Origin: Nitrospirota bacterium
GTDB lineage: Bacteria; Nitrospirota; Nitrospiria; Nitrospirales; Nitrospiraceae
DNA length: 64,000 nucleotides
Direction: 5' to 3'
Assembly (NCBI GenBank): GCA_963703955.1
Contig: CAVPGK010000005.1
Span: 1 to 64,000 of the forward strand
The notes beneath the pieces were generated by a model. The model was not told where the DNA came from. It did no database searches and was given only the letters and a program-made list of their open reading frames with translations. Both the position numbers and the translations under genes were made by a program. Below are positions 10,834 to 33,071 of this stretch, piece by piece (the stretch's first letter is position 1; every line of letters starts with the position of its first letter).

Positions 10834-10849
10834 AGCAGAGGTTGTGCCA
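10834..10849 (-). promoter_or_regulatory. Sigma54 -24/-12 promoter
   Basis: Minus strand TGGCACAACCTCTGCT (GG-N10-GC), 48 bp upstream of the 10786 start. Confidence 0.85.
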
Positions 10850-14526: not shown

Positions 14527-14696
14527 TGTATCTAACTAGATAACCGAGAGTATGCAATTCGATACACTTCAGGCAGGCGCATGTTCGTCGATTCTTGCCT
14601 CGTATCGCTCCACTGAGAATTTTCATATACGAATCAATCCGTTGAACGGTTCATGACCATACAAGCCACCAGCTGCCAAGAGGCATTGCGATTGCT
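14527..14696 (+). promoter_or_regulatory. Sigma54 promoter cassette 1 (tandem UAS, IHF, -24/-12)
   Basis: UAS 14527-14566; IHF AATCAATCCGTTG 14632-14644; AGGCATTGCGATTGCT 14681-14696. Confidence 0.85.
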
Positions 14697-14742
14697 CTGT
14701 TTAAAGGCAACGGCACCCAAAAGCCACTGCAGGAGGTGGAAT

Positions 14743-14919
14743 ATGGACTGGGCGATCGTGACATGGATGATTCTCATTGGGATGGTCGGATTGTTGTGGG
14801 TAATGGCGATGGCGGTGATTCACGACGACGGACACGGCAGCCGCGAAGTTCCCGTGGAGAAGCCGGAGTCGGACAGGTCGGTCGACAACGTGGAGGCGCA
14901 TCGGCACAACGCGGCCTAG
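14743..14919 (+). CDS. 58-aa single-TM small protein ending in -AA
   Basis: AGGAGG RBS, N-terminal hydrophobic helix, directly after cassette 1. Confidence 0.75.
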   Translation: MDWAIVTWMILIGMVGLLWVMAMAVIHDDGHGSREVPVEKPESDRSVDNVEAHRHNAA

Positions 14920-14969
14920 CAACTGTCCGCCCTAAATAGCCCTAAACCTGTAGATACAAGGAGTGACCC

Positions 14970-15380
14970 GTGGAAACCGCACTGTCGTCTCCAACCTCGA
15001 TACATCCCGGAGAGAATGCTGCCCCTGCCTCAACGGGAGTCTGTCGTTCGGCCAAGCAGCGCGACTGGCAACCCGAAGAAGAGGCTCAGCCGGCTCAGAT
15101 CCTGACCGCTTTCCCGCTCACTACCGAGAAATGCCCTCAGCCCTCTGTCCTCAGGCGGAAACGCCTGACGGTCTACCTGCCGGTGACCCTGTTGGAACAG
15201 TTGCGTAACACGGTGTTTTGGACCCGAGGAGCCACGGTGGCCGGCCTTCTTGAAGCGGCGCTCAGAGAATCCCTTGACCAACGGGAGCATCTGCGTGGTG
15301 GGCCATTTCCGAGGCGGTTGGCAGAGCTCAAGGGAGGACGGCCCAGACGTCGCCAACCTGATCCTCTCCCGGAAGGGTAA
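14970..15380 (+). CDS. Ribbon-helix-helix (CopG-like) DNA-binding protein
   Basis: KRLTVYLPVTLLEQLRN..TVAGLLEAALRESL; AAGGAG RBS before GTG. Confidence 0.7.
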   Translation: METALSSPTSIHPGENAAPASTGVCRSAKQRDWQPEEEAQPAQILTAFPLTTEKCPQPSVLRRKRLTVYLPVTLLEQLRNTVFWTRGATVAGLLEAALRESLDQREHLRGGPFPRRLAELKGGRPRRRQPDPLPEG

Positions 15381-15649
15381 AAACCACACTGGTAGGTGGT
15401 TGCACTCAATCGCACACCGGAGGTATGTACTCTACACAGTTACTCTTGAACGGGAAGGAAACGATATCAGCGCCTCCTAACCACATTTGGCACAATTTCG
15501 GACGTTGTGACGCTAACTTGTAGATAAACGACTATCAAGGATGGTCTCCTGCTGGCCTTCAAGCTAATATGGTGTCAGATGGGAGACCTCCTTTATCACT
15601 ATCCACTCGAACCCACCCCAAGGCTTTTCCTTCTCCAGCGCACGCGCTG

Positions 15650-15920
15650 CGGAAAGAACTTGTTTTATCGAAACAGCTTCTGTGTTCAGGGACCCGATGA
15701 GGGCGAATGTTAGGGAGTGCTTAGAGGACAGAGCAAAAAAGATTTTCTCGGCACGAGTCAATTGCTACAAGGAAGGGCAAGTGAAACACATTCCTCGCTG
15801 AGATTGTTGCATGAATCGAGAGCGCCGATCATACCGGAGATCGACGAACTTCTGAACAAATATCGGGAAATATTGACAGTGCTGAACGGCATGATTCTGA
15901 CAACTCGTCGGAAGTTGGGG
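15650..15920 (+). pseudogene. Degenerate four-helix-bundle (IVS-type) gene
   Basis: Pieces across frames, KELVLSKQLLCSGT / RANVRE / QSKKDFL / ASETHSSLRLL, match the family pattern SKQLLRSGTSIGAN..QSKKDF..EA.ET.YWL.LL. Confidence 0.65.
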
Positions 15921-15941
15921 TCTAGAACCTCCAATTCGTCA

Positions 15942-16028
15942 ATCAGCACTCATCATTCAGAACCCAACACTCTTGACCCGCAACGTAGTATTCTCACCTC
16001 AGAACTCGACACTCAGCACTCAAAACTC
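15942..16028 (+). repeat. Degenerate heptamer array (ACTCAGC-like)
   Basis: tcagcac tcatcat tcagaac ... actcgac actcagc actcaaa actc. Confidence 0.6.
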
Positions 16029-16051
16029 CCAAGGAGGGGTTGGAGGCCGTC

Positions 16052-19000
16052 ATGAGCACCGAGCCCGTGGCAAGCGACACGAAAGTGCTGATCGTGGACG
16101 ATGATCTCGACATCAGCCAGGCCTTGGCCGACCTGTTGGAGCATGAGGGCTATCGGGTGCGGGTCGCCGTGAACGGAGCGGAGGCGTTGGAAAAAGCCAA
16201 GCAGGGTCGTTACGGGGCCGTCCTCTTGGATCTGGGCCTGCCCGATATGGACGGTCTCGAATTGCTGAAGTCGCTGCAGGAAGTGGACGCGACACTTCCG
16301 ATCATCGTGCTGACCGCCTACACCACGGCGGAGAAGACCGTCGGGGCCCTCAGCAAGGGCGCCTTTGCGTTCATGACTAAACCCTACAATCGGGATCAAC
16401 TCAAGGCGACGCTGAGCCGGGCGGTCGGGGTGAAAGCCTTGGCCACTCGAGCGGAAACCGTCGAAAGCGCCTTGACGGTGAGTGAAGATCGGTTTCGCTC
16501 GGTGGTGCAGTCCGCCAGCGATGCGATCGTGCTGGCCAATGCGCAGGGCCAGGTCATCTCCTGGAACAAGGCCGCCGAACGGCTCTTTAGGTATGGCGAG
16601 ACGGAGGTGTTGGGCAAAGCACTGACCACCCTGATGCCGGCTCGGTACCGTCAGGCGCATCAACGTGGGCTGGAGCGAGTCCGCGCCACGGGGCAGTCGC
16701 AGGTGATCGGTCAGACGCTGCAGATGGAGGGCATGCGAAAAGACGGATCAGAATTCCCGATTGAACTCTCCCTCGCGACCTGGAAGACGCACACGGAGAC
16801 CTATTACTGCGGCATCATCCGTGACGTGACCGAACGACGGCGGACGGAAGCGGCGCTGCAAGCCAGTGAGGAACGATATCGCGCCCTGTTTGAAGACAAT
16901 CCGTCCATGTACTTCATGGTGGACCATACCGCGAGGATCCTGTCGGTCAATCGATTCGGGGCCGAGCAACTCGGCTACACCGTGACGGAGTTGGTCGGTC
17001 GACCGCTGCTGAACGTCTTCTATGAAGCCGATCGGGAGGCGGTCACTCGGAATTTCAAAGCCTGCCTCGCCCGGGTCGGCCACACGATGAACTGGGAATT
17101 TCGCAAGGTCCACAAGGACGGTAGTCTGCTCCGCGTGCGCGAAGCGGCCAGGGCCGTCGGTACCGCTGGAAAGAACCCGGTGGTCTTGATCGTGTGCGAG
17201 GATATCACCGAGCAAAAGCGGGCCGAGGAGGCGTTGCAACTAGTGGTGGAGGGGACCTCCTCGCTGATGGGCCGGGAGTTCTTCCGGTCGCTGGTCCGCC
17301 AACTCGCCACCGCGCTCGACGTCAGGTACGCGCTGGCCACCATGTGCAAGGGTTCGCCCGCCACAAAGGTGCAGACCCTCTCGGTCTGGATGGGCGACAC
17401 CTTTGCCGACAACTTCGACTATGACTTGGAGGGGACGCCATGCCACGGCGTGGTCGGCGGGGAGCCGGCATACTACGCCAAAGACATTCAGCAACTCTTT
17501 CCCCGAGATGAGGTCCTCGGGAAGATGCGCGCGGAGAGCTACCTGGGCATCCCGTTCGTCAACTCAACGGGAGTCGTGATCGGTCATCTGGCCGTCATGG
17601 ACGACAAGCCGATGGGAGATGAAGACCGCAAGAAAGCGATCCTCAGAATCTTCGCCGCGCGGGCCGGTGCAGAATTGGAGAGAATGCAGACGGAGGTCGC
17701 TTTGCGCGCCAGCGAGGAGCGGCTGGATCTGGCGGTGCGAGGTTCGAATGACGGCCTGTGGGATGTACGGCCCTTGCAGACCGAGCCGTGGTCTTCCCCG
17801 AAAACCCCGACCTGGTATTCCCCACGCTTCAAAGAGATGCTGGGCTTCGCCCCGGAAGAATTTCCCGATGTGCTCGAAAGTTGGCTCTTGCAGCTGCATC
17901 CCGACGACAAGGATCGGGTGTTCGCGGCACTGACCGCGCATATCGACCACAAGGCCCCCTATGACGTGGAATACCGGTTACGGACGAAGGAAGGTGAATA
18001 CCAGTGGTTTCGAGCGAGAGGGCAGGCGATCTGGAGCGAGGGGGGGCAATTTGTTCGGATGGCCGGCTCATTGCAGTGCATCAACGATCGAAAGCGGGTG
18101 GAGGAGGCACTGCGGGAGCAATTGCGCCTGGCCACCTTCGGCTCCGAGCTGGGCGTTGTGTTGACGCGGCGCCGGACCCTGCGCGACATGCTCGGCCTCT
18201 GCACGGAAGCCATGGTGCACCATCTCGGTGCGGCGTTCGCCCGGGTGTGGCTGTTGAATCAAGAGGGGACCGGTCTGGAGTTACAGGCCAGCTCGGGAAT
18301 GTACACCCATCTCGATGGACCCCATAGTCGCGTGCCGGTCGGCTCCCTTAAGATCGGCCGGATTGCCCAGACGCGTCGGCCTCATCTGACCAACGATGTC
18401 CTCCACGATCAACAGATCAGTGATCCGGAGTGGGCCAGACGCGAAGGTATAGTGGCCTTCGCGGGCCATCCGCTGATGGTGGAAGACCGGTTGGTCGGGG
18501 TGGTGGCGATGTTTGCCCGCCAAGCTTTGACCGACTATACGATCAAGGCGTTGGCGGCAGCCGCCAATGCCATCGCGGGGGGGATTGAACGCAAGCAGGC
18601 CGAGGAAGCGCTCGCCCGACTCAGTCACCAGCACAATTTGATCCTCAATTCGGCCGGCGAGGGAATCTTCGGAGTGGACCGTCATGGCCATACGACCTTC
18701 GTCAACGAAGCCGGCGCCCGCATGCTCGGATGGGAGGCGAATGAATTGATCGGCAATTCGATGCATTCCTTCATCCACCATTCAAAGCCGGACGGGTCAT
18801 CATATCCCGATGAGCAGTGCCCAATTTACGCCGCGTTCCGGGACGGCAGCGTGCATGCGGTCTACAACGAAGTGTTCTGGAAAAAGGACGGCACGAGTTT
18901 TCCGGTCGAATACCTCAGCACGCCCATTCGCGAGCACGGTGAGCTGGCGGGCGCGGTCATCATCTTCAAGGACCTCTCCGATCGGAAACTCACAGAGGAG

Positions 19001-19391
19001 GCGCTCCGGGAGAGCGAGGAACTGCTCCGCGAGGTGACGGAAAATATCAAGGAGGTCTTCTGGATCAGCGACCCGGAAAAGAACGAGGATCCTCTACATC
19101 AGTCCCGCGTATGAAGAGATTTGGGGACGTAGCTGCCACAGCCTCCGGGCGTCGCCGCGTTCATGGCTTGATGCGATCCATCCCGATGACCGCGCCCGCG
19201 TGCTGGACGCCGCGCTGACCAAACAGGTGAGCGGCCGCTACAATGAAGAATATCGTATCGTCCGACCCGACGGGTCCATCCGATGGATTCATGATCGCGC
19301 GTTTCCTGTGCGAGACGCGTCAGGGAGAGTCTATCGCATCGCCGGGATTGCCGAAGACATGACGAGTCGAAAACAGGACAACCAGTCATGA
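16052..19391 (+). CDS. REC-PAS-PAS-GAF-PAS-GAF-PAS-PAS protein with no output domain; +1 frameshift near 19087
   Basis: REC (VDDD, LDLGLPDMDG, KP), repeated PAS/PAC and two GAFs; removing one G in GAGGATC gives NEILYISPAYEEIWG, running to TGA 19389-19391, which overlaps the next ATG. Confidence 0.85.
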
Positions 19392-20455
19392 AGCAATCTT
19401 GCTATGGCCTGCTTCGGGCCGGACGGTGGGGCCAGATCTTCGAGTCGTATTTGAGCCGCGCGGCGGATTTCCGTGGGGACCGCAGAGAGTTGTCATCTGT
19501 GACGGACAAGGCCGTACAGCCATCGTTTGCACGAACCGCAGTCTGGTTAGGATGGCTCGTCGCTGTCATCTGGATGATCGGGCCCGCCCTTCCCGCGTCC
19601 CTGCACGCCCGTGAGATCGCCGTGCTCAAGTCTGCCGATATCGCGGCATACAATCAAGCCGTGGCCGGTCTGAAGAGCGAACTGCCGGAATCGACCACCC
19701 TCAGCGAATACAACATGGATGGCGATGCGGAGCGGGGCCGGAAGCTCGCACGAGATATTCGTGCGTCCGAAGCAAGTGTTGTTGTCGCAGTCGGATTGAA
19801 AGCCGCCTTGGCTGCCAAGCTGGAGATTGTCGCTATGCCTGTCATCTATTGCATGGTGCTCGATCCGGCCAAGCATGAACTGCAGGCGCCAAACCTCACC
19901 GGCATCAGCCTGCAGATTCCGGTCGAGCGGCAGTTCGCCACTATGTCCTCGGTCCTCCCGAACCTGAAACATGTCGGCGTCCTCTATGACCCTGAGAAAA
20001 CCGGCCCATTGATCGCAGAGGCGCGCCGTGTGGCTAAGGGGCTGGGCCTCAACCTGGTCGAGCGCCAGGTCTCTTCTGAAAAAGACTTTCCGGCTGCACT
20101 TCGTGGAATGATCTCGGACACGGAAGTGTTGTGGTTGGTGCCGGACAGCACAATTCTAACCGAAGAGTCGCTTCGATTCGTGCTGGCGACGGCCTTGGAT
20201 CACAATGTTCCAGTCGTCGGGTTCTCCTCTGAATTTGTCCGCAACGGCGCGCTCATTGGCCTTTCCCTTAATGCTGAAGATATCGGGCGGCAGACGGCCG
20301 GTATTGCTAAGAAAATTCTCAAAGGGCAGTCCGCCATCTCTCTTGTGCCTGCGCCACCCAGCCGAATTCGATTTTCCCTGAATCTAAAGACCGCCAAATT
20401 CCTCGGGCTTTTTATTTCACCGGAGGTCGTCAGTCGTGCGGACGAATTGTACTAG
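19388..20455 (+). CDS. ABC-type substrate-binding protein, probable periplasmic sensor partner
   Basis: IAVLKS..AY, VAVG..A, PVIYCMVLDP, VGVLYDP, LWLVPDST, LNLKTA; no permease or ATPase adjacent; true start may be downstream. Confidence 0.85.
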   Translation: MKQSCYGLLRAGRWGQIFESYLSRAADFRGDRRELSSVTDKAVQPSFARTAVWLGWLVAVIWMIGPALPASLHAREIAVLKSADIAAYNQAVAGLKSELPESTTLSEYNMDGDAERGRKLARDIRASEASVVVAVGLKAALAAKLEIVAMPVIYCMVLDPAKHELQAPNLTGISLQIPVERQFATMSSVLPNLKHVGVLYDPEKTGPLIAEARRVAKGLGLNLVERQVSSEKDFPAALRGMISDTEVLWLVPDSTILTEESLRFVLATALDHNVPVVGFSSEFVRNGALIGLSLNAEDIGRQTAGIAKKILKGQSAISLVPAPPSRIRFSLNLKTAKFLGLFISPEVVSRADELY

Positions 20456-20756
20456 GAGGATACGAAAAAAGGCCACCAACTGTTTTGCTGCCGTTCTACC
20501 GTGCAGGGTGTGCATTTTATGATGCGCGAATGGCCCGGCCATGAGCTACTTCGTTCTCAGCCGTTTGGACGCCTCAACGATCCACCTGTCCGCCTCGGAG
20601 CCAACTCCCTGCGGTTTTTGCTGGATGATCTTTTTGAGCATCCTCTTAAGAGAAATCCCAGAAGCATTGGTGTATATGACAGGACATTCAGTTCGTTCTG
20701 GTGCGTTCAGGAGTTCCACGGGCTCAACGGTTCCTTACTAAGCCAGTGAGACTTCT

Positions 20757-22984
20757 ATGAGAGCCCGACAATCACCGCACCAGGGCTCGACAGGTCGATT
20801 CATCGGCCTTCGGACCAAATTTGTGGTTTTCATCAGCTTGATCATTATCGCTGTCTGCACGGGCTTGAGCTGGTACTTCATCCACCAACAGGCCCAATTG
20901 CTGACGCGCACGTTGACGGACACCGGATTACTATTGGTCAACAATCTGGCTCATAACAGTCGATATGCGGCCATTACCGAGGATCTGACAGATCTGGAGC
21001 AGTTCATTGATGGCGTGATGGAGGACGATGAGGTGGTGTATGCCGTGATCACCGAGACCGGACGGGTCGCGAGTGGTGGCGAGGAGCAAGGGGCATTTGG
21101 TCGACCGGATCGCTTTCTCCGTTCCCAGGATTCACCCCTCTATCCGGATGAGTCCCTCGCCCGTCCGTTCGACGTCTCACAGAGTCCCATGGTGATTCGG
21201 GTCTCGACGGGCGGAGGACTGATCGCCGAGCCATCTATGACTTTGCGATTCCGATCCTTAGGCGCCCGCGCTCGTCATCCGACGTGCCTCTCCAATACTC
21301 CTTGGAGTCCGGTGAGAGCGACAGATCAAGAAATGTGAAGCGGGACTCAAATCCGCAAATCGTCAGCGTCATAGAGATCGGCCTCACGGAGGCCAAGAGG
21401 CGACAGAGTCTCGCCGAGGCCGTCAGGCGGGTGGTCATCATCACCGTTCTCTTCATCCTCGGCGGGATTGCGGCCACCATCGCGCTCGCCGCTCGGATTA
21501 TCACTCCGTTAAGGACCCTGGCCATGGTCGCGGGACGGGTCGCGGAGGGCGATTTGACGGTGTCCGCGGAGCCGGCCACCCATGATGAAGTGGGACAGCT
21601 GACATCCATTTTCAATCGGATGACCCAGTCGCTCAAGGAGCGTGACGAGGCCATTTCGTCTCAGATTGGGACGATTACCAAACAGGTGACGCAACTCACT
21701 GCGTTGAACCAAGCCGGTGCGGCGATCACCTCCATGCTCGACGTGGAGAAACTGCTGACGAGTGTCTTGCGTCTCCTGACTGAAAATCTCGGCTACCGGC
21801 GGGTGTTAATCATGTCGTACGATCCGAATCGAGGAGTCGCTTATGGTCCGAGAGTTGCGGGGCTGCCCGACGAGATCGAACGGCAAACTCGAGGGCTGGA
21901 AATATCGGTTCAGGATGATCGGAGCGTCAGAGCGGAACTGCTCATCCACGGGCGTGCGCTTCTCATTTCGGATCTCGAGAGGGTCTCGGACCGAATCTAT
22001 CCCCCACTTCTTCCGTTGGCCCGTCAAATCGGAGTCACCAGCTTCGTCGGTGCGCCACTCAAGAGCTCGCAGCGCATTCTGGGATTCATCGCGGCAGATC
22101 GAGGCAAGGAGGCGTGCACGGAGGAGGATCTGGACCTCCTGGTGACGCTAGCGAGCCAGATTGCCGTGGCGATCGACAACGCCCAGGCGTACCACGAACT
22201 ACAGCACCTCACGCAGACGCTGGAACGACGAGTCCAAGAACGGACACAGGACTTGGTAACGGCCAATGAGCAGCTCCAGGAGCTGGACCGTCTGAAATCG
22301 GCTTTCGTCTCGATTGTCTCACATGAGTTACGCACCCCGATGACCTCCATCAAAGGCTATGTCGAAAACATGTTAGATGGCCTGACGGGTGCTCTCACCG
22401 AGAAGCAGTCGTATTATCTGAGCCGGGTGAAATTCAACATCGAGCGTCTGACGCGGATGATCAACGATCTGCTGGATCTCTCTCGTATCGAAGCGGGCCG
22501 GGTCGAGCTTGTCTTGACACACATTCTCGTGGCCGATCTGCTGGCGGAAACCACGGAGGCGTTACAATCTGTCGCGGACACGAAGGGCGTCGCGCTGCGC
22601 GGCCAATTCCAAGGAGATCCGTGGGCGATGCAGGTCGATCGTGACAAGCTCCATCAGATTCTCACGAACCTGATTCAGAATGCGATCAAATTTACCCCCA
22701 AAGGCGGCGAGGTGCGGCTGGACGCCTCTTTGCGGAACGATGGATTCGTGCAATTCTGTGTGGCCGATACCGGCTGCGGGATCGCTCGCCATGAACTCTC
22801 TAAGATCTTCGAGCGATTCTACCGCGGCGAATCCGTGCAAGCCGAACAGCGAGGGGCCGGGTTGGGTTTAGCCATTACAAAGAGCCTGGTTGAACTGCAT
22901 GGCGGCCAGATATGGGTGGAAAGCACGCTCGGTCAGGGCAGTCAATTCTTCTTTACCATCCCGATGGTCCCACCGGATCGATGA
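20757..22984 (+). CDS. Membrane HAMP-GAF-HisKA-HATPase kinase, frameshifted between about 21055 and 21240
   Basis: TM1 after GLRTKF, IYDFAIPI in the downstream frame, TM2, HAMP (DEVGQL..FNRM), VSHELRTP, NLIQNAIKF, GAGLGL. Confidence 0.85.
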
Positions 22985-23056
22985 CCGTGAATCGCAAGCG
23001 TGAACGATGGCGGGGGTTCAAGGGTTCCGATTCACAGTGATCGTCTTCAGGCTCCA

Positions 23057-23228
23057 TGTATCGGAACAGATAACGCGGCGTATTCGATTCGATACGGTCC
23101 AGGGCACCCGTTGCTCTTGCAGCCGCGTCGGGTTTCACAGCATAAGTAGTTTTATTATGATGAATCAATATCTTAAGATGCGCGTGCTCTGCCAGACCTC
23201 GCAACACGATGCTGGCACCTCAGTTGCT
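23057..23228 (+). promoter_or_regulatory. Sigma54 promoter cassette 2
   Basis: UAS 23057-23096; IHF AATCAATATCTTA 23163-23175; TGGCACCTCAGTTGCT 23213-23228. Confidence 0.88.
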
Positions 23229-23405
23229 CATCTTAGAACATCTGCGAAGATGCTTTCATAGGGAAGTGAGGGAGCGGGAGCGGGACGGAAACAGGGCGAT
23301 GATCTCCGGAATAAACCGGGCGATGGTTAGCAATAGCATAAGCCAAGCGAGTTAACTCCGCGAGAGATCGAGGTTTCTTGAGAAACTCCTTCAGAGAGGT
23401 GCAAC

Positions 23406-25050
23406 ATGAGGAAGACGTGGAGTTTTGTCGTGATGTCGATCGCACTGCTTCTCGCCGCTGTACCCAATTACGGGGATATGGGGAAAAGAGAGTCATCCGT
23501 TCGGTACCTTGATCAGGGTTGGAGCCCGGAATTGCGACAGCAGTTTTACCATACTCCGCAGGGGACCGAACTGATTCCCTATCATTGGTTTCTCCACCTG
23601 AAACAACATGATGGGGCTCTTTTCAAAGATGACATCACGGCGCGGTATGGCTTTATCCCCGATCCAACACATCCGGACGGTTTGCCCGTGGGATTCACAA
23701 TAAGCCCGGACGGATTCCTCGGCTTGAATTGCGCGGCGTGTCATACCAGTCAAATTCGGTATCAAGGCAAGACCATCTATATCGATGGCGGCGCTTCGAT
23801 GCAGAACAACCTTGCATTCATGAAAACGATGTTCGTCTCTCTTGGCGCAATTCTCAAAGATGACAACAAATTCACTCGCTTCGCTCAGGAAGTCGGCAAG
23901 GCCAACGATCAGCTGAAGGTGGAAGTCGCCGAATTTCTTAAGCTGCAGGAGAAGCCATTGTTGGAAGCCAAGGAGAAATGCCAAGACCCCGACAAGAAGA
24001 GTATCTACGCTAACCCCGAGTATTCGGTTTACCCCAAGGATGGTTGGGGATTTGGTCGCTTGGATGCGCTGGGGCGAGGAGGCAATACGCTGTTGACCCG
24101 ACGTGATCCATGCGCTCTTGAACGAGCTGATGCCAGTGAGTATTCCTAGCCTTTGGGGAACCTGGAGGTACGACTGGGTGCAGTGGAATGGTTCGATTGA
24201 AAATCCGCTGGCGCGAAATATCGGACAGACCGTGAGCTTAAACGCCGAGACCGTTGAGATCAAGGCCCTTGATCAGTTGGAAAACTACGTTCAGAAGCTC
24301 AAACCACCTTCCTGGCCGGACGATTTTCCTTCTATCGACAGAAAATTGGCGGCAAAAGGGAAAGAACTCTACCAGGGGCGAGATGGGAAAGGACTATGTG
24401 CCGGTTGCCATATGCCTCCGGTCGAACCCAATCCCTGTGATGGGAAAGAAGAGTTGACCATGAAGTTGATTGCAGTTGAAGACATCAAGACCGACGAAAA
24501 GACGGCTGCTAACTTTGTAGACCGCAAGATTAAGACCGGCCAGTCAGCCGCGACGATCATGAAAGAGACAACTGACACAATAATGGAAAGACAATTTGCA
24601 GAGTTGAAGCTTTCGGTGAATGAGCAAAACAGGATGCAGAGATGCCGCAAAAATGAATGGCGAGCGCGACCGGAGTACAAAGCACCTACCCACGCCGGGG
24701 TATGGGCGACCCCGCCCTATCTGCATAATGGGTCCGTTCCGAATTTGTATCAACTGCTTCTCCCAGCAGAGCAACGTGATAAGTCGTTTTGCGTCGGCAG
24801 TCTTGAATTTGAGCCAAAGCACGTCGGATTCAAAACAGATGTGTGCGTCGAAGGAGAAGCTCCATTCGATACCTCACGTCCCGGCAATATGAACACCGGG
24901 CATGAATTCAGAAACGACGACAGAGCCGGGCACACATTTACACGAGCCCAGTGTGAGGATCGTATGAAACATGCCAAGGATGGTATTCTCGGCTGTGAGA
25001 TTGCGTCTGAAGATCGATGGGCTATTGTCGAGTACATGAAAACCTTATGA
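23406..25050 (+). CDS. Exported di-haem c-type cytochrome (RoxA-like/peroxidase-related); frameshift near 24135
   Basis: Signal peptide, CAACH and CAGCH, GFGRLDA, WATPPYLHNGSVPNL, NTGHEF; adding two C to gatGCCAGTG restores ADAPVS. Confidence 0.85.
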
Positions 25051-25115
25051 TTAGGACGACGACGCAAGTCGGTTACAGGTGAGAGCCGCCGGTACCTCGC
25101 AGTCACGTTGCGACG

Positions 25116-27845
25116 ATGACTGAACTCTTCTCGAAAGAGCATACGATCATCGAAAAGGGGTCCATGGAGTACCGCCCCTTCGGGGTGGACGAAGATGGCG
25201 AGAAAATCCACGACATCAGCGGGGTCATCGTTCGGTCGAGCGTGGCGTATTTGGAAGAGTCGATCTCGCGCGACGCCGGACCGGAGGCGGGTGCCCGAGC
25301 TGTCCAGGAGTTGTGCCGCCTGCTGAATGAGCGGCTTCGCGATCCTGTTTACCACGTCACTCCCGCCTTTCTCAAGAATGTCTGGAACGGCTACTCATAT
25401 GAGTTCGTCTCTTTCCTGCGTGAATTCTGTGCGAATATCTTGAACGACCCCGACTTTACTGCCCATGCGGCGAAGGAGAAACATAATATCTCGCCGCTGC
25501 TCCAGATCTTAGGCCGACCGTTCTCGCTATCCGACATCTACAAGATGTGGGCCCATTTCGGGGAGAAGTACGCGAAGGGCTCTCTCCAGTTCGAGGTGGG
25601 GCCCGTGACGGAGCGTTCGGCCGTGTTGCGGATGAAATTTGCGGACAGGGTCTATCGGCAATTCGGTCCGTACCGGAAGCGCTGCGTCGAAATGGCCTGC
25701 CAATCGGCCAAATTCGGTCTCTCGATGGTTCCTGCGCAGATCCATCACCTGCGTCCGGCGACCGTCACGGACCGCACCTGTATCGTGAATGGTGATGAGT
25801 ACTGCGAATGGGAGTTCAAGTGGTCCCCTCAGCCTACTGACAGGCTGTTCCGCTCGATGTGGGGGCTGCTCGCCGGGACTGCGGCTTATGCGTACCTTCG
25901 TCTGTTCCATCCGGCGGTCACCGTCGTCGAGGCCTTAATCGTTGCCTTAGTACCGGCGGTCGTGGCCTGGCTGGTCGCCAGCCGACCGCTGCAGAGGCAG
26001 GTCGAAAGCCTGAAGGATCTCATCAAGGAGCAAGACCAGGCCGTCGAAGCTCGCCACGAAGAGCTGCGCGAAGCCTATGTTGAGCAGGAACAGACGACCG
26101 TCGAGTTGCGCCGGAAAGTCGGGCAATTGACCACGTTGCACCGCGCGGGGCTCCTCTTCAGCTCCACCCTGGACCGGGAGGCGTTATTGCGCGAGGTCCT
26201 GGAAACGATCGTCCGGGACCTTCATTACGACCGGGCCATGATTGCCTTCTATGACCGGGCCCGACAGATCACCCATGATTTTCGAGTCATAGGCGTCTCC
26301 GAGGATATTACGGCGTTTGCACGCTCGCGAGAGCTGCCGATTACCGATCCCAACAGCATTGAGGGAACCGTGATTCTCCAGGGAAAGCCGCTACTCGTGA
26401 CCGATATTAGAGACGTGTGGGACCGCCTGCACCCCTTGAATCAACAACTGGTTTCAATGGCCAACGTCACGTCGCTGATTTCCGTTCCCCTGAAGGTCAA
26501 GGATCTCATCATCGGCTCCTTGACCGTCGATCGGGCCCAGGGGCATTCACTCACGCAGGATGACCTCGACATGATGGTGACCGTCGGGAGCCAGGTCGCA
26601 ATCGCGCTGGATAACACAGAGGCTTACCGCCAGATCGAAGCGTTGAACCTGGGGCTTGAAGAGCGGGTACGCGAGCGGACCGCAGAACTGAGGGCCGCCA
26701 ACGAACAGCTCAAGCAGATGGACCAGCTCAAGTCTCAGTTTCTAGCGCACGTGTCCCATGAGTTGCGCACGCCGCTGACGAGCATCACCGGATTCACCGA
26801 CAACATGCTGGAAGGGCTGGCCGGCTCCTTGAGCGCGAAACAGGAACAGTATCTGGCCCGGATCAAAGCGAATGGCAATCGGCTGACCCGGATGATCACG
26901 GACCTATTGGACCGTTCCCGGATTGAAGCCGGCAAGCTCGAGCTGTCCCTGGGACCGGTCGTCCTGACCGCGCTGGTCTCGGAGGTGATCGAGCAGCTCC
27001 GGCCGCTTGCGCGGATGAAACGCCAGCGGCTGGACCTTGAGTGCCCGGAGCCCGACCTGGTCGTCTGGGCCGACGCCGATCGGTTGAGCCAAATCCTGAC
27101 GAATCTGATCGACAACGCCATCAAATACACGACCGACGGCGGGTCGGTGATGCTCAGAATTGCACTGGAGGAGCATATGGCCAGAGTGTCGGTGACCGAT
27201 ACCGGACAGGGCATTCCTCGCGACGCCCTCCCGAGGCTTTTTGATCCGTTCTTCCGATCTCGCCATCACGAGAAGAGCCAGATCAAAGGCCTGGGCCTGG
27301 GGCTCTCGATCGCGAAGGATCTGGTCGAGCTTCATGGCGGCGCGATCTCGGTTCAGAGCGAGGTGGGACGAGGAAGCGTGTTTCATTTTACGCTTCCGGT
27401 TCATCGGGGCTTTGAAAAGAGACTGTCGCTTTCTCCATCGCCGAGCAAGCGCATCCTGGTCGTGGATGACGAATCGGACATCCGGCAATTACTGTGTGAC
27501 CGGCTGCAGTCGGACGGATTCGTCGTGCAGACGGCGGTTGATGGGCGCGACGCGTTGGCGTCGCTGCGGCTGGGTTCCGTGGATGGCCTGATCTTGGATA
27601 TCGGCATGCCCGATATCGACGGGCTGGAGGTGCTTCGTGAGATTCGTGAGAAGTATCCTACGGTGCCCGTGGTGATGATCACGGCGGTCGAGGCCCGGGA
27701 ACGCGCGGTCCTGGCCTTGGAAGCGGGCGCGCAGGCGTACCTACTCAAGCCGTTCGACCCGGCACAGTTGCACCAAGTCGTGACTCGCTGGTTTCGACCG
27801 AATGAGGCGGGAACAGAGGAGGGTAGGACGAAGGGGAGGGGATAG
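25116..27845 (+). CDS. Hybrid kinase: V4R-like N-domain, 2 TM, GAF, HisKA, HATPase, REC
   Basis: TCIVNGDEYCEWEFKW (V4R-like Cys pattern), VSHELRTP, NLIDNAIKY, GLGLGL, C-terminal VVDDE..LDIGMPD..KPF. Confidence 0.9.
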   Translation: MTELFSKEHTIIEKGSMEYRPFGVDEDGEKIHDISGVIVRSSVAYLEESISRDAGPEAGARAVQELCRLLNERLRDPVYHVTPAFLKNVWNGYSYEFVSFLREFCANILNDPDFTAHAAKEKHNISPLLQILGRPFSLSDIYKMWAHFGEKYAKGSLQFEVGPVTERSAVLRMKFADRVYRQFGPYRKRCVEMACQSAKFGLSMVPAQIHHLRPATVTDRTCIVNGDEYCEWEFKWSPQPTDRLFRSMWGLLAGTAAYAYLRLFHPAVTVVEALIVALVPAVVAWLVASRPLQRQVESLKDLIKEQDQAVEARHEELREAYVEQEQTTVELRRKVGQLTTLHRAGLLFSSTLDREALLREVLETIVRDLHYDRAMIAFYDRARQITHDFRVIGVSEDITAFARSRELPITDPNSIEGTVILQGKPLLVTDIRDVWDRLHPLNQQLVSMANVTSLISVPLKVKDLIIGSLTVDRAQGHSLTQDDLDMMVTVGSQVAIALDNTEAYRQIEALNLGLEERVRERTAELRAANEQLKQMDQLKSQFLAHVSHELRTPLTSITGFTDNMLEGLAGSLSAKQEQYLARIKANGNRLTRMITDLLDRSRIEAGKLELSLGPVVLTALVSEVIEQLRPLARMKRQRLDLECPEPDLVVWADADRLSQILTNLIDNAIKYTTDGGSVMLRIALEEHMARVSVTDTGQGIPRDALPRLFDPFFRSRHHEKSQIKGLGLGLSIAKDLVELHGGAISVQSEVGRGSVFHFTLPVHRGFEKRLSLSPSPSKRILVVDDESDIRQLLCDRLQSDGFVVQTAVDGRDALASLRLGSVDGLILDIGMPDIDGLEVLREIREKYPTVPVVMITAVEARERAVLALEAGAQAYLLKPFDPAQLHQVVTRWFRPNEAGTEEGRTKGRG

Positions 27846-27846
27846 C

Positions 27847-29217
27847 GTGGTTCGACGAGCATCGGCTGTCCTCCATTCTGTCTGCTGCACGACCTGTCTC
27901 GCCCTCGCCTGGCTGACTTCTTCCCCACCGGCGCATGCGCAAACTCCTCGTATCCAAGGACAAGGATCGGCGGCGTCTGGCATGGCCAATGCATTTGCGG
28001 CCCAGGCCGATGACCCGTCCGCCCTGCACTACAACCCTGCCGGCATGACCCAGTTGCAAGGCGTGCAAAATATGTTTGGGGCTCTGTTCGTCGGCGGGCC
28101 GACGAACTTTACGAGTCCTACCGGTGTTGAGGTAACGGGGGATCGAGGCGGAAGCGTGGCGTGGCCGCCGCCGGGCCACATTTACCTGACCGCCAATCTG
28201 AAGGATCTGGGAGTGAGGTCCCTCGGAGATTTGACGGTCGGAGTGGGGTTGAACAGCCCGTTCGGCTCGCTCAGCCGGTATCCGGTCAATGGTCCATTCA
28301 GAACCGCGGTCACATTCAGCACGCTCCCGCTGTTGGATATCAAGCCCACCATCGCCTACAAAATCAACGATCAGCTATCCCTAGGCCTGGGCGCGGATAT
28401 CTATACCTTTTCCGGATTGTTCGGTGAGGGACACGTCGAGCTCAAGACGGCGAACACGGCCATGACGCAGCAATTCGAGATCAACGGAAGCGACACCGCT
28501 GCGGGATTTAATGTCAGTCTCCTGTATACGCCCTTCCGCAATGCGGACGGAAAACCGCTGGCCAATGTCGGGCTGGTCTATCGAAGCCGCGCGACCCTTC
28601 ATCTCACTGGACTGTTTCTCATAAACGGCGCGCCAACGGCCGATACGGCTGCGACCCTTGTCTTACCGCAGGTTTATTCGGGGGCGATTGCGGTCTGGCC
28701 GATCCGCGATGCGGAGCGCGAATGGAAGCTTGAGCTGGATGTGGACTATGTCGGATGGAAGGCCAATCAAAATCTGGATGTGCAGCTGTCTACAGGTGGG
28801 GTCATCCCTCAGCCCCAGAACTGGAGCAACAGTTTCACCGTGATGATCGGAACCGAGTACAGATGGCTTCGGCTCACGCGTCTGCCGGATTGGGAGCTTG
28901 CGTTGCGAGGAGGGTATGCCAATCAGCAGACGCAGGTTCCTGATTTGACCTTCAATCCCGGTGTGCCTTCGGCAAATACTCACATCCCGTCCGTCGGTCT
29001 GGGGTTCCTGTGTCAGGAGAACGGATCCTTCCTGGGTCTCAAGTGCGGCCAGCTCGGATTCGGAACGCTGAAACCGAAAGCCTTTGGGATCGATATCTCC
29101 TACCAGGCTGCGATCTATGAGGTCCGCACGATCACCGGTAACCGGAACCCCACGGTGAACGGGACGTATGACACCCTCATTCAAGCGGGGGGAGTCAGCC
29201 TGCGGTTTATTTACTGA
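27847..29217 (+). CDS. OmpP1/FadL/TodX-family outer-membrane transporter
   Basis: GMANAFAAQADDPSALHYNPAG hatch motif, amphipathic beta strands, terminal aromatic (RFIY). Confidence 0.9.
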   Translation: MVRRASAVLHSVCCTTCLALAWLTSSPPAHAQTPRIQGQGSAASGMANAFAAQADDPSALHYNPAGMTQLQGVQNMFGALFVGGPTNFTSPTGVEVTGDRGGSVAWPPPGHIYLTANLKDLGVRSLGDLTVGVGLNSPFGSLSRYPVNGPFRTAVTFSTLPLLDIKPTIAYKINDQLSLGLGADIYTFSGLFGEGHVELKTANTAMTQQFEINGSDTAAGFNVSLLYTPFRNADGKPLANVGLVYRSRATLHLTGLFLINGAPTADTAATLVLPQVYSGAIAVWPIRDAEREWKLELDVDYVGWKANQNLDVQLSTGGVIPQPQNWSNSFTVMIGTEYRWLRLTRLPDWELALRGGYANQQTQVPDLTFNPGVPSANTHIPSVGLGFLCQENGSFLGLKCGQLGFGTLKPKAFGIDISYQAAIYEVRTITGNRNPTVNGTYDTLIQAGGVSLRFIY

Positions 29218-29467
29218 TCGCACCGTCGAACCTCACCCGTGTCGTGTCCCCTGAAACTAATGAGCCACCTGGGTTGCCTGTTGCGGCTTAGCGTCAACGT
29301 CGATCGCATGATTCGAATGATTGCGGACCCCTGGAGTTGTGGTTCGGCGTATCGAAGGTTGAATAGGACCATCTCGCTCTTCATTTCTGAATCCTGGATT
29401 CAGCACGAGGTAACCAAACAGTTTGGGTTCTTAGGACTGACAACTAATATGAGTTGGTCGTCGGTGG

Positions 29468-29628
29468 TGTATCTGACTGGATAACACCCTGTATTCAATT
29501 CGATACGATTTTTATCATCCCCGTGTGAGTGCTTCCTCGTCCATGAGGGATAATTCATCGGATCATCAACGTGTTTCGAGCGGTTGCCATATATTGTTTT
29601 GCGGCCATTTCGTGGCACAGCGGTTGCT
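29468..29628 (+). promoter_or_regulatory. Sigma54 promoter cassette 3
   Basis: UAS 29468-29507; IHF-like CATCAACGTGTTT 29564-29576; TGGCACAGCGGTTGCT 29613-29628. Confidence 0.88.
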
Positions 29629-29680: not shown

Positions 29681-29845
29681 GTGGAAGCGATGGCCTGGGG
29701 AATGATCGTGACGGGATGCACCCTGTTCGGAATGCTGGCGCTGTGGATGCTTAGCGATCGCATAGCCCATATGCCGCTGCCGAAAGAGATGGCTGACAGC
29801 TATCCACTGACTTCTCAGGTGGCTGAACTGACGAAGGCGGCATGA
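29681..29845 (+). CDS. 54-aa single-TM small protein ending in -AA
   Basis: AGGAGG RBS before GTG 29681, hydrophobic N-terminal helix, ends ELTKAA. Confidence 0.7.
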   Translation: MEAMAWGMIVTGCTLFGMLALWMLSDRIAHMPLPKEMADSYPLTSQVAELTKAA

Positions 29846-32639: not shown

Positions 32640-33071
32640 ATGCATACCCAATACGCGGCCAACGGTCGACAAGGACGAATCCTCATCGTCGAGGATGAAC
32701 CCCAGGTGAGAAAGCCGATTTCTCTCATGCTCAGGAAAGAAGGGTATGAAATCGTGGAGGCGGAAGACGGGGAGCAGGCGATTCAGAAAATCGGCGACGG
32801 AGACAACGCCTTGATGGTGGACACGATCCTTTGCGATATTCGGATGCCCAAGATCAACGGAGACGAGGCTATTGTGTATTTCAGAGGTCAGTTTCCGACG
32901 GTGCCGATTGTGGTGATGACGGGCTATCCGGACGTAGAACTCGCCGTGTCTTTGATGCGGAAAGGTGTACGAGACTATCTGGTGAAGCCAGTGTCCAAGG
33001 ATGAATTGCTGACCGTGATGAAGAAATCCGTCGAGCAGCACGTGATCATGAAGGACCAATTTACGATCTAA
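32640..33071 (+). CDS. Single-domain response regulator
   Basis: VEDE, CDIRMPKING, MTG, KP; AGGAGG RBS. Confidence 0.92.
   Translation: MHTQYAANGRQGRILIVEDEPQVRKPISLMLRKEGYEIVEAEDGEQAIQKIGDGDNALMVDTILCDIRMPKINGDEAIVYFRGQFPTVPIVVMTGYPDVELAVSLMRKGVRDYLVKPVSKDELLTVMKKSVEQHVIMKDQFTI

What the first reader, a model, noticed from the sequence alone, without database searches (positions are those of the whole stretch)
14527..29628. Hidden sigma54 regulon: one UAS-IHF-promoter cassette repeated three times in 15 kb
Seen: three otherwise unrelated intergenic regions share a 40-bp motif: TGTATCTAACTAGATAACCGAGAGTATGCAATTCGATACA (14527), TGTATCGGAACAGATAACGCGGCGTATTCGATTCGATACG (23057) and TGTATCTGACTGGATAACACCCTGTATTCAATTCGATACG (29468). 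Each is two GTATC-N6-GATAM-type palindromes 22 bp apart. A GG-N10-GC element follows 154, 156 and 145 bp later (14681, 23213, 29613), with an IHF-consensus site 49, 50 and 49 bp upstream of it. Established: UAS pair + IHF + -24/-12 is the architecture of enhancer-binding-protein promoters. Inference: one activator, whose site I cannot assign to a known protein, switches on the whole signalling island, possibly in a feedback loop with its kinases. It is probably not the 11017-12954 activator, which sits beside a different palindrome.
Basis: partly seen in the sequence, partly recalled or inferred. Interest (0 to 1): 0.92.

Follow-up and report, generated by a model that had tools for sequence, protein, structure and literature searches.

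The report
Conserved sigma-54 enhancer cassette, Nitrospirales
Three operons of signalling genes in this Nitrospirales genome each carry the same activator-binding site, DNA-bending site and sigma-54 promoter; the layout is textbook, the site is conserved in related genera, and the activator is still unproven.

Summary
The three 38-40 bp motifs are at the stated places, with 0 matches expected by shuffling. They are the only copies at up to 3 mismatches in the 3.3 Mb assembly.

Each motif is two GTATC-N6-GATA(A/C) dyads 22 bp apart. About 105 bp after the motif start lies an ATCAA-N4-TT site, and 145-156 bp after it a GGCA-N7-TTGCT sigma-54 promoter.

Related genera keep the cassette. Of 18 strict motif sites in 10 of 61 genomes, 14 have a sigma-54-like element 135-167 bp downstream, against 0.07 expected. 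On the opposite side 1 of 18 does. Ten of those 14 have the IHF core at -48 to -51. rpoN and IHF genes are present.

The regulon reaches beyond the island: 18 dyad pairs genome-wide, against 0.15 for permuted controls.

The best activator candidate is an orphan NtrC-type regulator outside the window (G000:C12:144204-145616). Its relatives in a sister family sit directly behind such dyads. I put this assignment at about 40%.

This is a new member of a known kind, of moderate interest. No transcript start or binding data exist.

The parts
14528..14565 (+). UAS A: two dyads (14528-14543, 14550-14565), centres 22 bp apart
   Evidence: dyad scores 21.6 and 22.0. The orthologous site is kept in G019, G006, G010 and G031.
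14632..14644 (+). IHF-like site A (AATCAATCCGTTG), 49 bp before the promoter
14681..14696 (+). Sigma-54 promoter-like element A (AGGCATTGCGATTGCT); start predicted near 14707
   Evidence: GGCA and TTGCT are invariant in the 5 orthologous cassettes.
14743..14919 (+). Operon A, gene 1: small one-helix membrane protein (58 aa)
   Evidence: no Pfam family. Homologues follow the motif in G010 and G006.
14970..15380 (+). Operon A, gene 2: 136-aa protein of no family; weak ribbon-helix-helix leads only
   Evidence: no family; atlas leads; homologues in G010, G019, G031, G006
16040..19114 (+). Operon A: REC-PAS(x4)-GAF(x2) signalling protein with no kinase domain
   Evidence: 74% identical orthologue in G019
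19388..20455 (+). Operon A: periplasmic binding protein (ABC_sub_bind, PF04392)
20757..22984 (+). Operon A: HAMP-GAF-HisKA-HATPase kinase, read here as two frames (20757-21338, 21284-22984)
   Evidence: Relatives have a single ORF of 743-749 aa.
23058..23095 (+). UAS B: two dyads (23058-23073, 23080-23095)
   Evidence: scores 19.0 and 22.7
23163..23175 (+). IHF-like site B (AATCAATATCTTA), 50 bp before the promoter
23213..23228 (+). Sigma-54 promoter-like element B (TGGCACCTCAGTTGCT, 0 mismatches)
23406..25050 (+). Operon B: di-haem cytochrome c peroxidase family gene, split into two frames (23406-24149, 24103-25050)
   Evidence: the two ORFs match positions 1-192 and 206-524 of NF040606. RoxA-like cytochrome c domain.
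25116..27845 (+). Operon B: hybrid kinase GAF-HisKA-HATPase-REC
27802..29217 (+). Operon B: FadL/TodX-type outer-membrane channel
   Evidence: In the sister family, FadL homologues stand directly before a dyad pair and the activator gene in G055 and G038; in G041 one stands about 600 bp before a pair.
29469..29506 (+). UAS C: two dyads (29469-29484, 29491-29506)
   Evidence: scores 20.0 and 24.1. The orthologous site is kept in G019, G013 and G002.
29564..29576 (+). IHF-like site C (CATCAACGTGTTT; core only), 49 bp before the promoter
29613..29628 (+). Sigma-54 promoter-like element C (TGGCACAGCGGTTGCT, 0 mismatches)
29681..29845 (+). Operon C, gene 1: small one-helix membrane protein (54 aa)
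   Evidence: the start codon region is kept in G019
29886..32627 (+). Operon C: REC-PAS-PAS-GAF-PAS-HisKA-HATPase kinase, read here as three frames (29886-31262, 31073-32098, 32079-32627)
   Evidence: Relatives have one ORF of 917-940 aa. Environmental contigs carry one extra base after 31027 and lack one at 32076, which would join the frames.
32640..33071 (+). Operon C: single-domain receiver protein (143 aa)
   Evidence: 86% identical orthologue in G019

Best explanation

Proposed mechanism: each UAS is two 16-bp dyads (pooled consensus GTATCGAATTCGATAC) whose centres lie 22 bp apart, that is two helical turns, so both face the same side of the DNA. Two dimers of one enhancer-binding protein (EBP) would bind there and assemble into the active ATPase ring. 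IHF bound at about -50 bends the DNA, so that the ring touches sigma-54 RNA polymerase closed on the GG/GC elements 145-156 bp downstream and opens the promoter.

The three transcripts would cover 14.7-33.1 kb:
- Operon A: small membrane protein, orf136, REC-PAS-GAF protein, periplasmic binding protein, HAMP-GAF kinase.
- Operon B: di-haem cytochrome c peroxidase family protein, GAF hybrid kinase, FadL-type channel.
- Operon C: small membrane protein, REC-PAS hybrid kinase, receiver.

The same dyad type, mostly in weaker copies, precedes other sigma-54-like promoters elsewhere in the genome.

What is shown in silico: the elements, their fixed spacing and orientation, their conservation at orthologous promoters in other genera, and the presence of rpoN and IHF genes.

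What is inferred: binding, bending, the start site and co-regulation.

Activator (odds about 0.4): the orphan REC-AAA+-HTH regulator at G000:C12:144204-145616, outside the window. It would be phosphorylated by the island's kinases, none of which has a DNA-binding partner nearby. That would close a positive feedback loop.
For: Motif: 3 copies in the window against 0 in shuffles, and the only 3 in the assembly.

Footprints: the three regions share only the dyads, ATCAA and GGCA-N7-TTGCTC. The same holds for 5 orthologous A cassettes and 4 orthologous C cassettes from other genera.

Strict motif in relatives: found in 10 of 61 related genomes, G000 included, with 0 reversed-control hits.

Link to sigma-54:
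- 14 of 18 sites have GGYA-N7-TGC[ATC] at +135 to +167, mostly +152 to +160. Expected is 0.07 at the background rate of 1.2e-4 per position.
- On the opposite side of the motif, 1 of 18.

IHF:
- The core ATCA[AG]-N4-TT lies at -48 to -51 in 10 of these 14, against 0.013 expected.
- rpoN is present. An IHF-alpha gene scores over its cut-off, and an IHF-beta-like gene scores just under it at 112.6 against 115 bits.

Synteny: the motif precedes orthologous operons in G010, G019, G013, G002, G031 and G006.

Wider regulon:
- A matrix built from the dyads finds 18 pairs in the genome, against a mean of 0.15 for 20 column-permuted matrices.
- 13 of the 18 have a sigma-54-like element within 260 bp. 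For the 15 pairs outside the window I estimate about 0.7 by chance, from the background rate.
- The looser pair pattern occurs in 29 of 61 genomes, with 1 control hit in all.

Activator candidate:
- In the sister family (G055, G038, G050), REC-AAA-HTH genes lie directly behind a dyad pair plus CGGCAC-N5-TTGCA. They sit beside a FadL homologue in G055 and G038, and on one contig with orthologues of the window's kinases in both. G041 has a pair about 650 bp before the two-gene unit that ends in the activator gene, but no promoter-like element facing it.
- 7 of 17 Nitrospirales loci of this activator type have such a pair no more than 900 bp upstream, against 0 of 63 remoter loci.
- These proteins' best match in this genome is the C12 protein, at 57% against at most 45% for the other activators.
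- They form one clade with it, support 100/99. The clade shares the helix-turn-helix G[SN]QT.AAE.L.LQRTYL.RLI.Q, which no other activator of this genome has.
- The C12 protein has the receiver aspartate context, GAFTGA and an HTH_8 match. No kinase gene lies within about 5 kb.
Against: There is no experimental datum. The RNA-library contigs are few, cannot show starts, and none covers a promoter.

4 of the 18 strict sites lack a promoter by my pattern. Kin are not independent, so the binomial figures overstate the case.

Two of the 18 sites come from the unpublished genome G006. Without them the counts are 12 of 16 for the promoter and 9 of 12 for the IHF core.

Against the C12 activator:
- Strictly it belongs to a sister subclade (c) of the island-borne activators (b). 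G013 has one of each, so they are paralogues.
- Orthologues at 60% identity or more occur in nearly all 61 genomes, including many with no motif and no excess of perfect dyads, for example G004, G008, G017, G020 and G032.
- The motif-bearing genomes G002 (86% complete) and G031 (81% complete) show no orthologue.
- In 30 family-f1 loci, this genome's own among them, no dyad pair lies within 1.5 kb of the gene; two loci have one lone dyad each. The own gene has no sigma-54 promoter beside it.
- The assembly is 82% complete, so an island-type paralogue may simply be missing.
Confidence: 0.8

Rival explanations
1. The cassette works as described, but the activator is a different EBP. It could be an island-type (clade b) paralogue lying in the unassembled 18% of the genome, or one of the other NtrC-type regulators with orthologues in the small motif-bearing genomes G010 and G031: C14:69379, C12:83330, C11:189936, C11:135259, C15:1989 or C4:16173.
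For: - The autoregulated activators of the sister family group with G013:C4, not with the C12 subclade.
- G002 and G031 have the motif but no C12 orthologue.
- Six other activators have orthologues of at least 64% identity in both G010 and G031.
- C12 orthologues are far more widespread than the motif.
Against: - None of the other own activators has the LQRTYL-type recognition helix.
- Among the neighbours scanned, five of those six have a kinase gene directly beside them (C14, C12:83330, C11:189936, C15:1989, C4:16173); none was found beside C11:135259.
- No dyad with a score of 10 or more lies within 6 kb of any of them, apart from lone weak sites.
Confidence: 0.3
2. The neighbouring GAF-PAS-AAA+-HTH activator at 11017-12954 (- strand) binds the dyads and drives the island.
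For: - It lies 1.6 kb from UAS A and is the only EBP gene of this genome near any dyad.
- 6 of the 7 genomes with an orthologue also have the looser dyad-pair pattern: G013, G019, G005, G007, G023 and G006, but not G001.
Against: - Of the 9 other strict-motif genomes, 5 have no orthologue at 63% identity or more: G010, G029 (97% complete), G031, G002 and G055.
- In relatives its orthologues have no dyad pair within 1.5 kb and lie on other contigs than the motif.
- It has its own sigma-54-like element right behind it (10849, - strand, TGGCACAACCTCTGCT) facing the OsmC-like gene. A like element follows the G005 orthologue.
- Its helix-turn-helix is of another type.
Confidence: 0.1
3. The dyads are operators of a regulator that is not an EBP. 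Candidates are a response regulator like RhpR of Pseudomonas syringae, which binds the same core GTATC-N6-GATAC, or the possible ribbon-helix-helix protein orf136 of operon A. The sigma-54 promoters would then be fired by an activator acting from solution or from another site.
For: - RhpR's footprinted and ChIP-seq site is GTATC-N6-GATAC (PMC4191427; I read the abstract and the passages found).
- orf136 is kept in the A operons of G010, G019, G031 and G006 and has weak atlas leads to ribbon-helix-helix families.
Against: - The fixed distance, fixed orientation and the IHF core midway are what a looping activator needs, not a repressor or a class I/II activator.
- In the RhpR paper's table the sites lie about 40-100 bp before start codons, and the passages read mention no sigma-54 promoter at them.
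- Dyad pairs stand directly before EBP genes in the sister family.
- Loci there that hold dyad pairs showed no orf136 homologue.
Confidence: 0.07
4. The motif is a fragment of a dispersed mobile or repetitive element, or a chance resemblance, with no regulatory role.
For: None found. The only point in favour is that A and C head paralogous operons, so two of the three copies could stem from a duplication.
Against: - Only 3 strict copies exist in the genome, with no similarity in the flanks.
- The site is conserved at orthologous positions across genera, with fixed half-sites and free spacers.
- Reversed controls give 0.
- There is no Rfam family and no terminator-like hairpin in the A region.
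Confidence: 0.01

Closest known systems
NtrC (GlnG)-activated sigma-54 promoters of enteric bacteria (glnAp2, glnHp2); recalled, not from a call
   Same: - Tandem dyads on one face of the helix more than 100 bp upstream of a -24/-12 promoter.
- A REC-AAA+-HTH_8 activator that assembles on them.
- IHF assisting at some promoters.
- Autoregulation, seen here in the sister family.
   Different: - The dyad sequence differs.
- The targets are kinases, receivers, a di-haem peroxidase-family protein and a FadL channel, not nitrogen assimilation genes.
- The candidate protein scores 437.6 bits against the ntrC equivalog cut-off of 558.6, so it is not NtrC itself.
NifA-dependent nif promoters (UAS TGT-N10-ACA, IHF site, -24/-12); recalled, not from a call
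   Same: The same three-part layout, with an IHF site midway between the UAS and the promoter.
   Different: NifA is a GAF-AAA-HTH protein with a different site, and no nif genes are involved. The dyads here read GTATC-N6-GATAC; only the first three letters of TGTATC recall the NifA half-site.
AtoC/AtoS-like two-component sigma-54 activators (the best-scoring NCBIfam model for the candidate)
   Same: Same domain order. AtoC is the top NCBIfam hit of the C12 protein, at 440.3 bits.
   Different: The score is far below the equivalog cut-off of 714 bits. There is no adjacent kinase and no ato genes.
RhpR inverted repeat GTATC-N6-GATAC of Pseudomonas syringae (PMC4191427)
   Same: The core dyad has the same letters and spacing; it was footprinted and found in most of 167 ChIP-seq peaks (passages read).
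   Different: The paper names HrpR and HrpS, not RhpR, as the NtrC-family sigma-54 activators. RhpR acts at single sites close to genes in a proteobacterium. Here the dyads come in pairs, 145-156 bp before sigma-54 promoters in this window (135-167 bp in relatives), in Nitrospirales. I take the likeness as coincidence of sequence; no RhpR homologue was looked for.

Membership tests
EBP-activated sigma-54 promoter (UAS + IHF + -24/-12) | GG and GC elements 10 nt apart that fit TGGCAC-N5-TTGCW (consensus recalled) | tested here: met
   B and C have 0 mismatches and A has 2. The element is conserved in orthologous cassettes.
EBP-activated sigma-54 promoter (UAS + IHF + -24/-12) | The organism encodes sigma-54 | tested here: met
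   One rpoN, at G000:C26:86884-87366, in a 511-aa open frame, 199.5 bits
EBP-activated sigma-54 promoter (UAS + IHF + -24/-12) | A conserved dyad UAS about 100-200 bp upstream, tied to the promoter in distance and orientation | tested here: met
   14 of 18 sites at +135 to +167, against 0.07 expected; opposite side 1 of 18
EBP-activated sigma-54 promoter (UAS + IHF + -24/-12) | An IHF site between UAS and promoter, and IHF genes in the genome | tested here: met
   Core at -48 to -51 in 10 of 14. IHF-alpha is over its cut-off; the IHF-beta-like gene scores 112.6 against 115 bits.
EBP-activated sigma-54 promoter (UAS + IHF + -24/-12) | Transcription starts about 12 nt after the GC and depends on sigma-54 and an EBP | not testable with these tools
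   Only contigs of two RNA libraries were available. They cannot show starts, and none covers a promoter.
NtrC-type (REC-AAA+-HTH_8) enhancer-binding protein: candidate G000:C12:144204-145616 | Receiver domain, sigma-54 interaction domain with GAFTGA, and a C-terminal Fis-type helix-turn-helix | tested here: met
   Response_reg 100.1 bits, Sigma54_activat 237.6 bits; HTH_8 19.5 bits, under its cut-off of 22. GAFTGA and GESGTGKE are read.
NtrC / AtoC / NtrX / ZraR equivalogs (NCBIfam) | Score over the curated equivalog cut-off | tested here: not met
   AtoC 440.3 against 714; ntrC 437.6 against 558.6; NtrX 387.5 against 600
Activator that binds these dyads | Direct binding of the protein to the 38-bp site | not testable with these tools
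   Only indirect support: relatives lie behind dyad pairs and share the recognition helix.
Dispersed repeat (REP / MITE-like) | Many copies with similar flanks, scattered without regard to genes | tested here: not met
   3 copies, flanks unlike, always before a promoter
RhpR-type inverted-repeat regulon | Core dyad GTATC-N6-GATAC | tested here: met
   The pooled dyad consensus is GTATCGAATTCGATAC; the genome has 9 perfect dyads against 1 control.
RhpR-type inverted-repeat regulon | An RhpR orthologue in the genome, and sites at sigma-70 promoters | not tested
The sites here stand before sigma-54-like elements.

The most novel reading that the evidence does not exclude
One orphan NtrC-type receiver-activator collects phosphoryl groups from several kinases of this island that have no DNA-binding partner. 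Through a single enhancer code it then raises the expression of those same kinases. The result would be a sigma-54-driven, self-amplifying switch, conserved across Nitrospirales, that also turns on a set of envelope and secreted proteins: patatin-like, subtilase, Sel1-repeat, phospholipase D-like and diguanylate cyclase genes in this genome, and two-partner-secretion and CHAT genes in the sister family. It would be a lifestyle switch in nitrite oxidisers, for which I found no defined sigma-54 regulon in print.
Probability: 0.25. Interest if true: 0.6.

Novelty: new member of a known kind. Interest (0 to 1): 0.45.

Why it matters
Nitrospirales are key nitrifiers, hard to grow and nearly without genetics. 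This genome alone has about 20 EBP genes.

Four searches of the open-access library found no paper that defines a sigma-54 regulon or an enhancer site in this group. Subscription journals were not searched.

A site conserved across genera, with a fixed cassette geometry, offers three things:
- a ready-made probe for DAP-seq, EMSA or a heterologous reporter;
- a way to predict co-regulated genes in metagenome-assembled genomes;
- a named candidate regulator.

The architecture itself is textbook, so a specialist would not be surprised. The value lies in annotation and testability, not in a new principle.

Tried and rejected
The dyad matrix was then built by reading the stored loci.
- Naming the EBPs with NCBIfam gave no equivalog for any of those scanned.
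- Phylogenetic profiling of activators against the motif was inconclusive. C12 orthologues are nearly universal, 11017 orthologues are too few, and counts of perfect dyads do not separate the groups cleanly.
- A search with the 49-residue helix-turn-helix found no close match in G002, G031, G044 or G042. It found related helices in G039 and in a 662-aa EBP of G002.
- Autoregulatory dyads near this genome's EBP genes: none except beside 11017. There were none at 30 C12 loci of the family, this genome's own among them, bar two lone sites. The own C12 locus has none and no sigma-54 promoter.
- Palindromes beside the 11017 gene: only two of 10-11 nt.
- Rfam found nothing in 13000-34000. No sigma-70-like promoter on the + strand and no terminator was found in 14200-14800.
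- Sequencing runs: no run holds more than 0.26 of the sampled words. Two RNA-library runs gave 11 and 10 contigs, on parts of 17.5, 19.1, 23.7-25.7 and 29.8-33.3 kb. They cannot show starts, strand or level, DNA may be present in such libraries, and none covers a UAS or promoter.
- Structure prediction, fold search and complex prediction were not used. Kinase-receiver pairs tend to pass by likeness to solved pairs, so a job would not have shifted the odds.


Full report
**1. The observation**

It finds only these three in the whole assembly, with none for the reversed control. The assembly is G000: 3,316,656 bases, 28 contigs, 82% complete; the window is C5:1-64000.

Each motif is two 16-bp dyads whose centres lie 22 bp apart. 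The outer half-sites (GTATC... and ...TTCGATAC) are the best kept (information profile).

The promoter-like elements lie 154, 156 and 145 bp after the motif start. B (TGGCACCTCAGTTGCT) and C (TGGCACAGCGGTTGCT) fit the recalled sigma-54 consensus without a mismatch; A (AGGCATTGCGATTGCT) has two.

The IHF-like sites lie 49-50 bp before the promoters. A and B fit the recalled consensus fully, C only in its core.

An alignment of the three regions shows identity only at the dyads, at ATCAA and at GGCA-N7-TTGCTC.

**2. What lies downstream**

Pfam and NCBIfam scans give three gene strings on the + strand.

- A: a 58-aa one-helix protein, a 136-aa protein of no family, a REC-PAS-GAF protein (1024 aa), a periplasmic binding protein (PF04392) and a HAMP-GAF histidine kinase.
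- B: a di-haem cytochrome c peroxidase family protein, a GAF-kinase-receiver hybrid and a FadL/TodX channel.
- C: a 54-aa one-helix protein, a REC-PAS-GAF-PAS kinase and a lone receiver.

A and C begin with paralogous genes: the REC-PAS parts are 48% identical over 361 residues, and the small proteins are weakly alike. So 'unrelated' holds for the DNA between the elements, not for the operons.

No gene of the three strings encodes a DNA-binding output domain that I could name.

**3. Is the cassette real? Relatives**

The strict pattern occurs in 10 of 61 related genomes, G000 included, as 18 sites with no control hit. Record titles returned place these relatives in the Nitrospirales.

- In 14 of the 18 sites a sigma-54-like element (GGYA-N7-TGC[ATC]) follows at +135 to +167, mostly +152 to +160. 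At the background rate of that pattern in the same loci (13 hits in 106,304 positions), 0.07 sites would be expected.
- On the other side of the motif, 1 of 18 has such an element. The asymmetry of the motif therefore points at the promoter.
- The IHF core ATCA[AG]-N4-TT lies at -48 to -51 from the GG in 10 of the 14, against 0.013 expected.

Kin are not independent, so these probabilities overstate the case. However, the sites come from several genera and from three kinds of operon.

Two of the 18 sites (L012, L015) come from G006, which is unpublished. Without them the counts are 12 of 16 for the promoter and 9 of 12 for the IHF core.

The four sites without a promoter are L008, L016, L017 and L018. 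L008 has a near-miss with A in place of the first G.

Gene maps show the motif before orthologues of operon A (G010, G019, G031, G006) and of operon C (G019, G013, G002). The latter sit beside the same FtsK-LolA-oxygenase neighbours as in the window.

Alignments of five A cassettes and four C cassettes conserve only the dyads, the ATCAA-N4-TT core and the promoter. This is the pattern of protein-binding sites, not of a repeat or an RNA.

Rfam finds nothing, and the A region has no terminator-like hairpin. The genome has one rpoN, an IHF-alpha gene over its cut-off and an IHF-beta-like gene just under it.

**4. The regulon is wider than the island**

A matrix built from the 36 dyads (consensus GTATCGAATTCGATAC) finds 18 dyad pairs with 19-23 bp spacing in the genome. 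Twenty column-permuted matrices give a mean of 0.15.

Thirteen of the 18 have a sigma-54-like element within 260 bp on one side (at most 2 mismatches, GG and GC kept). I ran no direct control for this looser criterion. From its background rate in the window (12 other hits on 128 kb), I estimate about 0.7 chance hits for the 15 sites outside the window, against 10 seen.

The genes behind these pairs include:
- a Sel1-repeat protein;
- a patatin-like protein of 1002 aa;
- a subtilase;
- DUF2278 plus a PLD-like protein;
- an MFS transporter plus a GGDEF protein;
- a further GAF kinase;
- a further REC-PAS protein;
- an 85-aa protein behind C3:35447.

The looser pair pattern occurs in 29 of 61 genomes, with one control hit in all. 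Perfect dyads are in excess over the reversed control in many genomes of families f1 and f3 (own 9 to 1, G007 23 to 1, G055 18 to 0). They are not in excess in genus g38 of family f2.

**5. Which activator?**

The genome has about 20 EBP genes.

*The neighbour, 11017-12954 (GAF-PAS-AAA-HTH).* It is the only one near a dyad, but the evidence is against it.
- Its orthologues (63-78% identity, plus a 70% fragment in G006) occur in 7 genomes. Of the 9 other strict-motif genomes, 5 lack one.
- The orthologues have no dyad pair nearby.
- The gene is followed by its own sigma-54-like element at 10849 (- strand), facing an OsmC-like, TPR and molybdopterin-oxidoreductase string.

*The lead from the sister family f3.*
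- In G055, G038 and G050 a REC-AAA-HTH gene lies directly behind a dyad pair and a CGGCAC-N5-TTGCA element. This looks like positive autoregulation. In G041 a pair lies about 650 bp before the two-gene unit that ends in the activator gene, with no promoter-like element facing it.
- In G055 and G038 the contigs also hold a FadL homologue right before the pair, and orthologues of the window's binding protein and kinases, each with dyad pairs of their own.
- Among 80 loci fetched with an alignment of these proteins, 7 of 17 Nitrospirales loci (at least 65% identity) have a pair no more than 900 bp upstream with a promoter-like element near the start. None of the 63 remoter loci does.

*The candidate in this genome.* The best match of these proteins here is G000:C12:144204-145616, at 57% against at most 45% for all other EBPs.
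- A maximum-likelihood tree joins three subclades with 100/99 support: (a) a second-tier f1 group, (b) the island proteins plus G013:C4, and (c) the f2 and f1 proteins including C12.
- All three share the helix-turn-helix G[SN]QT.AAE.L.LQRTYL.RLI.Q, which none of the nine other EBPs of this genome included in the comparison has.
- The C12 protein has a receiver domain, GAFTGA and an HTH_8 match.
- It has no kinase gene within about 5 kb; its neighbours are a DUF1015 gene and a copper ATPase gene. It also has no sigma-54 promoter or dyad of its own.
- In G058 (f2) two strong pairs lie within 10 kb of the (c)-type gene.

*What speaks against the candidate.*
- Subclades (b) and (c) are paralogous, since G013 has both.
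- (c) orthologues are nearly universal, while the motif is not.
- G002 and G031 have the motif but no (c) gene in their 86% and 81% complete assemblies.
- 18% of this genome is unassembled.

I put the C12 assignment at about 0.4, another or unassembled EBP at about 0.3, and the 11017 protein at about 0.1.

**6. Comparison with what is known**

The layout is that of NtrC- and NifA-type promoters (recalled). The candidate protein is below every NCBIfam equivalog cut-off, so it is an unnamed NtrC-family member.

The core dyad is letter for letter the inverted repeat of RhpR of Pseudomonas syringae (PMC4191427; I read the abstract and the passages found). There, however, it occurs as single sites near genes, and the passages read mention no sigma-54 promoter at them. 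I take the likeness as coincidence, and it backs only a weak rival.

Four library searches (listings read, no further papers opened) turned up no description of this site or of a sigma-54 regulon in Nitrospira or Nitrospirales.

**7. Expression**

No run holds more than 0.26 of the sampled words. Contigs of two RNA libraries lie on parts of the three operons. They cannot show starts, strand or level, and none covers a promoter. There is thus no transcript evidence for or against.

**8. Verdict**

This is a real, conserved enhancer-IHF-sigma-54 cassette and a regulon that extends beyond the window. It is a new member of a well-known kind. The activator is proposed, not shown. Interest is moderate.

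Noticed in passing
window 20757-22984, 23406-25050, 29886-32627: Three island genes are read in two or three frames, four breaks in all, where relatives have a single ORF. For the 29886-32627 kinase, an RNA-library contig has one extra T after 31027, and a DNA contig lacks one base at 32076. Each would join the adjacent frames. These breaks are therefore assembly errors or strain variants, not settled pseudogenes. The other two breaks were not covered.
   Followed up: partly
window 10834-10849 (- strand), with genes 9681-10712, 7950-9656, 6685-7941 (-): A sigma-54-like element (TGGCACAACCTCTGCT, 1 mismatch) lies just behind the 11017-12954 activator gene. It faces an OsmC-like gene, a TPR gene and a molybdopterin oxidoreductase gene. 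A like element follows the G005 orthologue. This is probably that activator's own target.
   Followed up: partly
window 14970-15380: The 136-aa protein of operon A has no Pfam or NCBIfam family. Its nearest atlas clusters are Nitrospirota hypothetical proteins, with weak leads to ribbon-helix-helix families (CB_ParB_C, Antitox_RHH). It could be a small DNA-binding protein inside the regulon.
   Followed up: partly
window 16040-19114: The REC-PAS-GAF protein of operon A has no kinase or other output domain. Its reading frame ends a few residues into a stretch that, in the operon C paralogue, continues as a further PAS domain.
   Followed up: no
G000 C6:174702(-) and C11:275842(-); C15:141508(-) and C17:369589(+): Two pairs of nearly identical sigma-54 consensus promoters, each with nearly identical downstream leader sequence, lie on different contigs. 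They may be duplicated promoter regions or paralogous genes.
   Followed up: no
L019 + L144 (G055:C18, 32.6 kb): One contig of a sister-family genome holds seven dyad pairs and two autoregulated activator genes. It also holds a FadL homologue, an animal-haem-peroxidase-like gene, a TPS-domain protein, a CHAT-TPR protein, a DUF928 gene and a patatin-like gene. It is a dense version of the same regulon.
   Followed up: partly
window 22327-22460: Contigs of two DNA runs skip 132 bases inside the HisKA/HATPase part of the HAMP-GAF kinase (depth 17.6 and 8.6; only 20 letters on the shorter side). With so short a side, this more likely comes from other organisms' kinase genes than from a real deletion.
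   Followed up: no
G000 C4:17666-18754 (L107:11500-12588, - strand): An IS630-family transposase gene lies beside the NtrC-type activator C4:16173-17579.
   Followed up: no
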